DNA from: Escherichia phage BEU5
Length of the DNA stretch: 64,000 bases
Sequence record: OM632664.1
Strand: one strand, 5' to 3'
The translations under genes were made by a program, and so were the position numbers. The notes under the pieces are model-generated. The model was not told the DNA's origin. It made no database searches and was given only the letters and a program-made list of their open reading frames with translations. Numbering within the stretch: the first letter of the stretch is position 1; each line of letters begins with the position of its first letter. Positions 11,605 through 11,967 of the stretch are shown here, piece after piece.

Positions 11605-11967
11605 CCTAATGTGTGGGATGTAACAGTTAAATCCAGTTGCCGGAAGTGCAATTCTAGATACGCTGCCAATGCGTGAACGGTAAGGCTGTACAGGACTCGG
11701 ACTCCCATCCCACCTCCTTATTTGAACCAGGTATGAACGGCTTACTTAGTATTAACTGCATAGGGGTATGTTAGGGATACTTAGGTGGTAAGCAGTTGGT
11801 AAGAATCCAACATGGTTCATTCCCTATTAGCAGTAACATAGTCCTGAGTACGTGTGCTCTAAAGACAATATTGGCGAGACAGTCCAATAGCTGCTAAATT
11901 AAATTCGTCCATTCCTCTTGGATGTGTAGCGAGTGAAGGTAACACTTAAAAATCCATGACCCACAGA

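What the first reader, a model, noticed from the sequence alone, without database searches (positions are those of the whole stretch)
11605..11965. About 360 bp ORF-free stretch inside a promoter-to-terminator tRNA unit
In a genome with almost no intergenic space, the 0.9 kb from 11090 to 12019 has no ORF of 60 codons or more on either strand. It ends with a strong terminator at 11968-11997 and contains further pairings such as GTGGGATG (11613-11620) with CATCCCAC (11688-11695). This is a candidate structured noncoding RNA of unknown class.
Basis: seen in the sequence. Interest (0 to 1): 0.45.

Follow-up and report, generated by a model that had tools for sequence, protein, structure and literature searches.

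The report
tRNA-like RNA modules in N4 tRNA operon
The gene-free stretch at the end of phage N4's tRNA operon is a string of three or four small folded RNAs, not one unknown RNA, and the first of them belongs to a widespread phage RNA family that also includes the RNase III-cut hairpin in front of phage lambda's N gene.

Summary
The window is phage N4 or a near-identical relative. The stretch 11605-11965 is noncoding and lies on the tRNA strand, between tRNA-Pro and an intrinsic terminator (11965-11994). It is a chain of separate modules, each closed by its own stem.

- **M6 (11613-11713):**
- **M7 (11723-11819):** a 7-bp acceptor-like stem plus a T arm.
- **M8 (11827-11897):** two hairpins plus a 3-bp loop contact.
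- **M9 (11897-11964):** a weaker spacer with one invariant motif.

M6 and M8 have strong covariation support: 94-96% and 92% of cells are paired, against 20-50% in slid controls. No reading frame stays open across homologues, and no Rfam family matches.

M6 belongs to a family found in "tRNA slots" of tRNA arrays in N4-like, T4-like, rV5-like and Vi01-like phages. A covariance model built only from those copies also finds, full length, the structured element between nutL and the N start codon of lambda. By position this is the published RNase III-sensitive hairpin.

The most likely role is small stable RNAs cut out by the host's tRNA and RNase III processing enzymes, like T4 rnaC and rnaD. What they do in trans is unknown.

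The parts
11442..11518 (+). tRNA-Pro(UGG), the last canonical tRNA before the module chain (context)
   Evidence: ARAGORN; Rfam tRNA 71.1 bits
11521..11604 (+). Module M5. A 13-bp closing stem (TTAGTGCTCTGGT/ACCAGAGCACTAA) encloses two hairpins. It lies just outside the flagged interval but belongs to the same chain.
   Evidence: Fold z = -5.2. It is 92% conserved in phage Pollock, directly after tRNA-Leu on the tRNA strand. The substitutions give G-U pairs on the + strand only.
11613..11713 (+). Module M6, a member of the family that includes the lambda N-leader hairpin.
- P1: 11613-11620 / 11706-11713
- P2: 11623-11626 / 11686-11689
- P3: 11633-11642 / 11671-11680
- Invariant core: CGGAAGTGC 11641-11649 and GCTGCCAAT 11662-11670
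- P5 hairpin: GGA-CTCGGAC-TCC, 11693-11705, abutting the 3' strand of P1
   Evidence: RNAalifold and pair counts. Model R1 scores it 108.9 bits, full length. The repeat finder pair I3.
11723..11819 (+). Module M7. It has a 7-bp acceptor-like stem TGAACCA/TGGTTCA (11723-11729 / 11813-11819), a long arm GCTTAC.../...GTAAGC, and a T arm GTTGG-TAAGAAT-CCAAC (11795-11811).
   Evidence: the repeat finder pair I2. There are two compensatory changes against Pollock. The L186 variant keeps the acceptor stem and T arm but has a different interior. It is found only in the N4 group and Pollock.
11827..11897 (+). Module M8.
- P1: TTAGCAG/CTGCTAA
- P2: GAGTA-CGTG-TGCTC, 11846-11859
- P3: TATTGG-CGAGACAGT-CCAATA, 11869-11889
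- A 3-bp contact between GTC 11841-11843 and GAC 11878-11880
   Evidence: Alignment A2. Pair counts: 92% paired, 12 pairs with changes on both sides. Model R2 hits only N4-like (Enquatrovirinae) loci. Fold z = -2.6.
11898..11964 (+). M9, a spacer. It has a small hairpin (TCCA 11908-11911 / TGGA 11919-11922) and the invariant motif AGTGAAGGTAACACTTAAAAATCCA (11932-11956).
   Evidence: The fold is not significant (z = -0.19). The hairpin position is kept with a different sequence in G7C-like phages (TTCCC/GGGAA), and the motif is invariant.
11965..12000 (+). Intrinsic terminator closing the tRNA and small-RNA unit
   Evidence: Terminator scan: 12-pair stem, 6 G-C pairs, T run. Annotated as a terminator in phages Jura and AL25.

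Best explanation
Shown: 11605-11965 is the 3' part of N4's tRNA operon. It encodes a tandem series of independently folding noncoding RNA modules on the tRNA strand (M6, M7, M8 and a weaker M9), followed by an intrinsic terminator. Each module has a closing stem. In M6 and M7 a T-arm-like hairpin abuts the 3' strand of that stem, so these two keep the 'top half' of a tRNA (the acceptor/T minihelix). The anticodon half is replaced by other structure. M6 belongs to a horizontally spread family that fills tRNA-sized slots in the tRNA arrays of several unrelated groups of enterobacterial phages. In lambda-type prophages the same family forms the structured element between nutL and the N ribosome-binding site.

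Inferred: the modules are cut out of the polycistronic precursor by host enzymes. RNase P, RNase E and exonucleases would act at the tRNA-like ends. RNase III may act on the stacked long arm of M6, as in lambda. The products would accumulate as small stable RNAs, as T4 species 1 and 2 RNAs (rnaC, rnaD) do. On this view the tRNA-like frame is a natural expression and stabilisation scaffold, and the replaced half is the cargo.

For M6 the cargo is an invariant helix and internal loop (CGGAAGUGC / GCUGCCAAU). This most likely binds a conserved host factor. The identity of that factor and the benefit to the phage are not known.
For: - **Noncoding.** No ORF of 60 aa or more. No frame is open across 31 M6 or 9 M8 homologues. 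The modules occur in different orders and contexts in relatives.
- **M6 structure.** RNAalifold on 10 tRNA-array copies gives 26 pairs, 13 with compensatory changes. Paired cells are 95.8% against 36-43% in slid controls. On 31 sequences the figures are 94.4% against 27-46%, with 19 pairs and 179 cells changed on both sides and 0 of 500 shuffles reaching this.
- **Strand.** Two pairs are G-U in all 31 sequences. They would be C-A on the other strand.
- **M8 structure.** 92.1% of cells are paired against 20-50%, and 12 pairs changed on both sides against 1-3.
- **M7.** Two compensatory changes against Pollock. The acceptor stem and T arm are kept around a different interior in L186.
- **Context.** Every non-lambdoid M6 copy sits in a tRNA array on the tRNA strand. 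For example, L194 10364-10472 lies between tRNA-Glu (from 10473) and tRNA-Pro (to 10357). M6 starts 2-4 nt after the upstream tRNA's CCA.
- **3' end.** NCCA follows P1 in about 7 of 11 lineages.
- **Link to lambda.** Model R1, built without any lambdoid sequence, matches lambda full length at 35384-35497 (34.5 bits, E 4e-7) and a lambdoid prophage at 54.6 bits. That site lies between boxB and the N start. N was confirmed by Pfam N36.
- **Literature.** The N leader is 'highly structured' and RNase III modulates N (PMC5725501, citing Wilson 2002; Steege 1987 is cited in PMC5371410).
- **Precedent.** T4 rnaC and rnaD are small stable RNAs in the tRNA region with unknown roles (PMC3014915). rnaC folds with a closing stem and a canonical T arm.
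Against: - There are no expression or end-mapping data for N4, so excision into discrete stable RNAs is an inference.
- The N4 copies of M5-M8 lack the encoded CCA that most family members carry; M6 ends in CTCC.
- N4's M6 lacks the 14-16 bp extended lower stem that lambda has and that best fits an RNase III substrate.
- P5 of M6 has only 3 bp, and its loop (CUNRGAC) is not a canonical T loop.
- Thermodynamic support for M6 and M7 alone is weak (z = -0.6 and -1.3).
- M7 rests on only three sequences.
- Alignment A5 was fitted to the model, which favours the structure. The independent alignment A4 gives the same result.
- That the lambda element is the published RNase III hairpin is inferred from position. 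The primary papers were not available.
Confidence: 0.6

Rival explanations
1. A cis-acting trailer only. The modules are not released as functional RNAs. Together they form a structured 3' trailer that protects the tRNA precursor from 3' exonucleases, supplies processing spacers for the tRNAs, or insulates the operon from gp48.
For: The stretch lies between the last tRNA and the terminator. The N4 copies lack CCA. The one studied family member, in lambda, acts in cis on N translation (PMC5725501). M9 has no significant fold.
Against: In other phages M6 sits between tRNAs in mid-array, not at the 3' end. The invariant apical sequences and invariant single-stranded motifs are more than a protective hairpin would need. 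The modules move independently between phage families.
Confidence: 0.2
2. Decayed tRNA genes. The modules are relics of tRNA genes that lost their D and anticodon arms. They persist without function.
For: They occupy tRNA slots. M7, and M3 and M4 upstream, keep T arms with UUCGAAU-like loops. tRNAscan calls M3 'Undet' in some records. Relatives carry true tRNAs (Ile, 'OTHER') at the equivalent places.
Against: Compensatory changes maintain the helices across distant phage groups. The M6 core is identical over about 30 nt in phages with unrelated genomes. M6 is 97-99% identical between N4 and Gamaleyavirus, whereas elsewhere in the 1.1-kb query only the M2-M3 segment matches. Neutral relics would not show this pattern.
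Confidence: 0.1
3. A DNA-level element. The conserved palindromes and modules act as DNA, for example as a recombination or homing-endonuclease target, or as a replication or packaging signal.
For: The modules are mosaically exchanged between phages. Homing endonucleases lie in or next to tRNA regions: T4 segB and G7C gp47.1 HNH. The apex holds small palindromes (TCTAGA, CGCGCG).
Against: Two invariant G-U pairs and several wobble substitutions fit only a + strand RNA. Covariation keeps pairing rather than sequence. The orientation always matches the tRNAs.
Confidence: 0.05
4. Small protein-coding genes that the 60-codon cut-off missed.
For: Some GenBank records of near-identical phages annotate 'hypothetical proteins' here, for example AlfredRasser and OLB145. 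ORFs of 21-38 aa exist.
Against: No frame is open across homologues. The ORFs span module junctions that do not exist in relatives. Indels of 1 nt are tolerated.
Confidence: 0.02

Closest known systems
RNase III-sensitive hairpin of the phage lambda N leader, between nutL and the N ribosome-binding site (Steege 1987; Wilson 2002, as cited in PMC5371410 and PMC5725501)
   Same: It shares the helices P1, P2, P3 and P5 and the CGGAAGUGC...GCUGCCAAU core with M6. A model built only from tRNA-array copies aligns to it end to end. An ACCA follows P1.
   Different: In lambda it is a 5' leader element of an mRNA. It has a lower stem extended to about 16 bp and acts in cis on N translation. In N4 it sits in a tRNA operon with no downstream ORF to control, has an 8-bp P1 and has no CCA. 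RNase III cleavage of the N4 copy is untested.
Phage T4 species 1 and 2 RNAs (rnaC, rnaD)
   Same: They are small noncoding RNAs encoded in the tRNA cluster on the tRNA strand, with unknown function (PMC3014915). rnaC folds as a closing stem plus arms plus a canonical T arm, like N4's M4 and M7.
   Different: No sequence or model similarity to M6-M8 was found. R1 gave no hit in the T4 locus. Only a weak 27-nt resemblance exists between rnaC and M4, which lies outside the flagged interval.
tRNA (Rfam RF00005) and tRNA-like RNase P substrates
   Same: The modules occupy tRNA slots. M7 has a 7-bp acceptor-like stem and a 5-bp T stem whose loop has U at position 1 and A at position 5. Most M6 lineages carry NCCA.
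   Different: They have no anticodon loop and no D arm. ARAGORN does not call them, and the Rfam tRNA model does not match them even at E up to 10.
Engineered tRNA scaffolds for expressing recombinant RNA in E. coli (PMC3753655, seen but not read in detail)
   Same: The concept matches: a tRNA frame keeps the acceptor/T part for processing and stability while the anticodon part is replaced by a cargo RNA.
   Different: This is an engineering device, not a natural family. The analogy is mine.

Membership tests
M6 / lambda N-leader hairpin family (no Rfam entry) | Shared secondary structure (P1, P2, P3, apical helix, P5) kept by compensatory changes | tested here: met
   Paired cells are 94-96% against 27-46% in slid controls, and 13-19 pairs changed on both sides.
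M6 / lambda N-leader hairpin family (no Rfam entry) | Invariant core CGGAAGUGC ... GCUGCCAAU | tested here: met
   Window 11641-11649 and 11662-11670. Lambda itself has CCGUAAGUGC.
M6 / lambda N-leader hairpin family (no Rfam entry) | A covariance model links the tRNA-array copies and the lambda leader, full length | tested here: met
   R1 was built from 10 tRNA-array copies. Scores: window 108.9 bits, lambdoid L129 54.6 bits, lambda L202 34.5 bits (E 4e-7), all covering model positions 1-109.
M6 / lambda N-leader hairpin family (no Rfam entry) | Position in an mRNA leader between nutL and the N ribosome-binding site | tested here: not met
   The N4 copy lies between other RNA modules in a tRNA operon. 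It has the lambda fold but not the lambda context.
M6 / lambda N-leader hairpin family (no Rfam entry) | Cleavage by RNase III | not testable with these tools
   N4's M6 lacks the extended lower stem of about 16 bp seen in lambda. This lowers the expectation of cleavage but does not settle it.
tRNA (RF00005) | Cloverleaf with a 7-nt anticodon loop, detectable by ARAGORN or the Rfam model | tested here: not met
   Only four tRNAs were called, and none lies in 11519-11965.
tRNA (RF00005) | Acceptor stem stacked on a T arm, with an encoded or added 3' CCA | tested here: inconclusive
   M7 has a 7-bp stem plus a 5-bp T stem. M6 has an 8-bp P1 plus a 3-bp P5. N4's M6-M8 have no CCA, but NCCA is present in most other M6 lineages.
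T4 rnaC / rnaD | Sequence or structure homology to the T4 RNAs | tested here: not met
   blastn gave only T-loop-level matches. R1 found nothing in the T4 locus.
T4 rnaC / rnaD | Non-tRNA RNA genes embedded in a phage tRNA cluster on the tRNA strand | tested here: met
T4 rnaC / rnaD | Accumulates as a small stable RNA in infected cells | not testable with these tools
   No N4 transcript data were found.
Intrinsic (rho-independent) terminator | G+C-rich hairpin followed by a U run, on the strand of the unit | tested here: met
   11965-11994 on the + strand, 12 pairs, then TTTTTTATTT.
Any Rfam 15 family | Match at or near the gathering score | tested here: not met
   Permissive scans of the window region and of the lambda, S16 and PhiSH19 loci returned only tRNAs and sub-threshold noise.
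Protein-coding gene | An open reading frame conserved in relatives | tested here: not met

The most novel reading that the evidence does not exclude
The M6-type RNA may be a mobile, tRNA-scaffolded, trans-acting phage RNA. Its invariant apical helix and internal loop would bind and modulate a conserved enterobacterial factor, for example an RNA-processing enzyme, a transcription-elongation component or a tRNA-targeting defence component. It is shared by temperate lambda-type phages, where it is the first RNA made from pL, and by virulent N4-like, T4-like, rV5-like and Vi01-like phages, where it rides in tRNA arrays. On this reading the known cis effect on lambda N translation would be only one use of a broader phage tool. 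M7 and M8 would be further cargoes on the same scaffold.
Probability: 0.25. Interest if true: 0.75.

Novelty: new variant of a known kind. Interest (0 to 1): 0.55.

Why it matters
Phage tRNA clusters are usually annotated as tRNAs plus empty gaps. Here the gaps are filled with conserved, covarying RNAs that keep only the processing half of a tRNA.

A classical lambda regulatory element, the RNase III-sensitive N-leader hairpin, shares a fold with RNAs in tRNA arrays of unrelated virulent phages. This gives that old element an evolutionary context. It also defines a testable family, present unannotated in about 10% of complete E. coli genomes. Finally, it offers a handle on the 50-year-old question of what small stable RNAs such as T4 species 1 and 2 do.

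Tried and rejected
- **Rfam.** Permissive scans of the region and of related loci returned only tRNAs.
- **T4 rnaC and rnaD.** Direct comparison with the window gave nothing beyond T-loop matches, except a weak rnaC/M4 resemblance.
- **Bacterial genomes.** A 16-mer scan (ACAGGACTCGGACTCC) returned 104 scattered hits, about what chance predicts.
- **First viral scan.** The two-block M6 pattern was too strict and gave 4 loci. The core-motif pattern worked.
- **M7.** blastn and a pattern scan found only the N4 group and Pollock. M7 is therefore supported by three sequences only.
- **M8.** Its model found no copies outside N4-like phages.
- **SRP mimicry.** I considered that M6's CCGGAAG...GCUGCCAAUG mimics SRP RNA domain IV. 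I rejected this because there was no Rfam hit and the GGAA is not a closed tetraloop in the consensus.
- **Unusual tRNA.** I considered a selenocysteine-like or intron-containing tRNA and rejected it, because no anticodon loop exists.
- **phi80.** Its N leader has no M6 copy.
- **Papers.** The primary papers on the lambda N leader and the phi80 RNase P substrate were not held. The RNase III cut sites could not be placed on the structure.
- **Not run.** I did not run the metagenome scan.

Full report
**What the window is.** The 1.1 kb around the finding is 98.8-100% identical to phage N4 and its close relatives. The 3506-aa ORF at 12911-23431 on the minus strand corresponds to the virion RNA polymerase annotated in N4. 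ARAGORN finds four tRNAs on the + strand: Asn 10840-10914, Ser 10920-11009, Thr 11014-11089 and Pro 11442-11518. gp48 starts at 12020.

**Checking the observation.**
- No ORF of 60 codons or more lies in 11090-12019.
- A terminator-like hairpin with a T run lies at 11965-11994.
- GTGGGATG is at 11613-11620. Its complement CATCCCAC is at 11706-11713, not 11688-11695.
- One 8-bp inverted repeat in 360 nt is about what chance gives.
- M6 alone is not thermodynamically unusual (z = -0.58). The 480-nt stretch 11519-11998 has z = -2.3 on either strand.
- The upstream part, 11087-11445, is much more striking (z = -8.2).
- No sigma-70-like promoter was found on the + strand. The 'promoter' end of the unit is therefore unverified.

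**Anatomy.** Folding, inverted-repeat search and comparison with relatives split the stretch into modules, each with its own closing stem.
- M5: 11521-11604
- M6: 11613-11713
- M7: 11723-19819 in error-free form 11723-11819
- M8: 11827-11897
- M9: 11898-11964, a weakly structured segment
- Terminator

Linkers between modules are 8-9 nt. Distant blastn shows that the modules are conserved independently.
- M6 is 97-99% identical in Gamaleyavirus (G7C-like) phages and about 80% identical in 150-kb Certrevirus myoviruses.
- M7 occurs only in the N4 group and in Pollock.
- M8 occurs in Gamaleyavirus, Kaypoctavirus and Moovirus.

In relatives the modules are separated by true tRNAs or by other modules. 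ORFs that cross module junctions in N4 therefore cannot be conserved. No frame is open across the homologues.

**M6 is a real structured RNA.** An alignment of ten copies from tRNA arrays came from N4, three Gamaleyavirus-type sequences, KaOmega, POP17, S16, PG7, SonariX and FBKp27. RNAalifold on it gives 26 pairs in helices P1, P2, P3, an invariant apical helix and P5. Thirteen of those pairs show compensatory changes. Of all cells, 95.8% are paired, against 36-43% when partners are slid by 1-3 columns. No shuffle of 500 reaches the observed covariation.

On 31 sequences aligned to the model the values are 94.4% against 27-46%. Nineteen pairs and 179 cells are changed on both sides. That alignment leans towards the model, but the independent MAFFT alignment says the same. 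Two pairs are G-U in every sequence, which fits an RNA of the + strand only.

P5 is a 3-bp hairpin with a 7-nt loop. It abuts the 3' strand of P1 as a T arm abuts an acceptor stem. Two nucleotides (UA) separate P1 from P2. In about 7 of 11 lineages P1 is followed by NCCA. N4 has CTCC instead.

**Where M6 lives.** In every virulent phage examined the element lies in a tRNA array on the tRNA strand. It starts 2-4 nt after the CCA of the upstream tRNA and fills a slot like a tRNA.
- KaOmega: between tRNA-Glu and tRNA-Asp.
- S16, PG7, SonariX, FBKp27, L151 and L191: just after tRNA-Gln.
- PhiSH19 (Vi01-like): just after tRNA-Asn.
- L194: exactly between tRNA-Glu and tRNA-Pro.

**The link to lambda.** A scan of viral contigs with the invariant core (CGGAAGTGC, 10-15 nt, GCTGCCAAT) returned 80 loci. 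More than half are lambdoid prophage contigs. In these the element lies between a boxA/boxB nut site and an ORF starting MDAQTRRRERRAEKQAQWKAAN. Pfam identifies this ORF as lambda N (N36, E 1.5e-26).

Model R1 was built only from the ten tRNA-array copies. It matches lambda itself end to end at 35384-35497 on the N-sense strand, that is +86 to +199 of the pL transcript, with 34.5 bits and E 4e-7. It matches the lambdoid prophage at 54.6 bits. Lambda was fetched by accession, not by the motif.

The literature held here describes the roughly 200 nt between nutL and N as 'highly structured', with RNase III modulating N autoregulation (PMC5725501, citing Wilson 2002). It also lists the N leader among lambda's RNase III targets (PMC5371410, citing Steege 1987). 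This element is the only large structure in that interval, so I infer that it is the published RNase III-sensitive hairpin. The primary papers were not available.

Lambda's copy has a lower stem extended to about 16 bp. N4's copy does not. The lambda-type element is present, unannotated, in 530 of 5426 complete E. coli genomes. No Rfam family covers any of this.

**M8 and M7.** Nine M8 homologues support three helices plus a 3-bp contact between the 5' linker (GUC) and the P3 loop (GAC). That contact changes to GCC/GGC in two related phages. Overall 92.1% of cells are paired against 20-50% in slid controls, and 12 pairs changed on both sides against 1-3. Long single-stranded motifs (AACAUAGYCCUGA, CUCUAAAGACAA) are invariant. 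Model R2 finds M8 only in N4-like phages.

M7 has a 7-bp acceptor-like stem and a 5-bp T stem with the loop UAAGAAU. Against Pollock there are two compensatory changes: GTTGG/CCAAC to GCTGG/CCAGC, and GCTTAC/GTAAGC to ACTTAC/GTAAGT. An N4-like contig keeps the same acceptor stem and T arm around a different, longer interior.

M9 has a small hairpin whose sequence differs but whose position is kept in G7C-like phages. It also has an invariant 25-nt motif, but no significant fold.

**How it most likely works.** The recurring design is a closing stem with a T-arm-like hairpin on its 3' side, in tRNA slots, often with NCCA. This is the part of a tRNA that the processing enzymes recognise. The anticodon half is replaced. 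I therefore think the modules are released from the polycistronic precursor by the host's tRNA-processing enzymes, and for M6 possibly by RNase III as in lambda. They would persist as small stable RNAs.

T4's species 1 and 2 RNAs (rnaC, rnaD) are the known precedent. They lie in the tRNA cluster, are stable and still have unknown roles (PMC3014915; PMC12685909). rnaC folds in the same general way.

These steps are inferred, not shown. The trans function, if any, is unknown. The identity of the M6 core across unrelated phages of enterobacteria points to a conserved host partner.

**Rivals.** I considered four alternatives: a purely cis-acting protective or processing trailer, decayed tRNA genes, a DNA-level element, and small ORFs. 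The covariation, the invariant loops, the strand-specific G-U pairs and the lack of conserved frames argue against the last three. The cis-only reading remains plausible for the N4 copies, which lack CCA.

**Verdict.** The finding is real and more interesting than an unexplained gap, but it needs re-description. It is a chain of tRNA-frame small RNAs. One of them belongs to a family that joins the lambda N-leader hairpin to the tRNA arrays of virulent phages.

Noticed in passing
window 11090-11445: The ORF-free part upstream of tRNA-Pro is even more strongly structured (z = -8.2). It holds further modules.
- M1: a long hairpin at about 11097-11184.
- M3: 11258-11323, a tRNA-like RNA with a 7-bp acceptor stem, a canonical T arm (UUCGAGU) and an encoded CCA, but no anticodon loop. 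It is called 'tRNA-Undet' in some records and is 100% identical in several Gamaleyavirus contigs.
- M4: 11323-11433, a closing stem of about 24 bp with a canonical T arm. It has a weak 27-nt resemblance to T4 rnaC.
   Followed up: partly
L007 (phage Pollock NC_027381) 1583-2106: The GenBank record puts four tRNAs on the strand opposite to the one ARAGORN finds. With the ARAGORN strand, M5 and M7 homologues follow tRNA-Leu directly on the same strand.
   Followed up: yes
L120 (Salmonella phage PhiSH19) 1473-1800: After tRNA-Asn, the Vi01-like phage has an M6 copy followed by at least two more stem-closed modules: TCAGAGTGT...ACACTCTGA and TCTACCACCGCGTGG...CCACGTGGTGGTAGA. The M6 copy and the next module both end in UACAA rather than NCCA. 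Chains of non-tRNA modules in tRNA arrays therefore seem to be general.
   Followed up: no
L202 (lambda) 485-598, minus strand: In lambda-type copies GCCAAU occurs twice (GCUGCCAAUGUGCCAAUCGC). The strand GCAUUGGC can therefore pair either with the invariant core or with the downstream copy. This is a possible structural switch that other family members lack.
   Followed up: no
L210 (phage phi80) 8795-9080, minus strand: The phi80 N leader has no M6 copy. It has its own large structure closed by GATGTGGT/ACCACATC and followed by GCCA. This may relate to the phi80-induced RNA reported as an RNase P substrate (Bothwell 1976, cited in PMC11143913). Not verified.
   Followed up: partly
E. coli complete genomes: The lambda-type M6 element occurs in 530 of 5426 complete E. 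coli genomes, including O157:H7 strains. No feature is annotated under it in the 30 records listed.
   Followed up: partly
L116 (Salmonella phage S16) 1216-1304: The annotated hypothetical gene gp75 (locus 1260-1841) overlaps the 3' half of the M6 element. Its start may be mis-assigned. Likewise, several N4-group records annotate 'hypothetical proteins' over 11605-11965; these are probably spurious.
   Followed up: no
window 11932-11956: AGTGAAGGTAACACTTAAAAATCCA is invariant between N4 and G7C-like phages although the flanks differ. In G7C-like phages another long-stemmed module lies between it and the terminator. Its role is unknown.
   Followed up: partly
window 11612-11619: The 5' strand of N4's P1 reads UGUGUGGG. 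From memory, this resembles the GU-rich boxC of rrn and nut leaders, and in lambda the P1 5' strand (GGUGUGUG) is the boxC of nutL. Other family members have different, covarying sequences here. The N4 match is probably coincidence.
   Followed up: no
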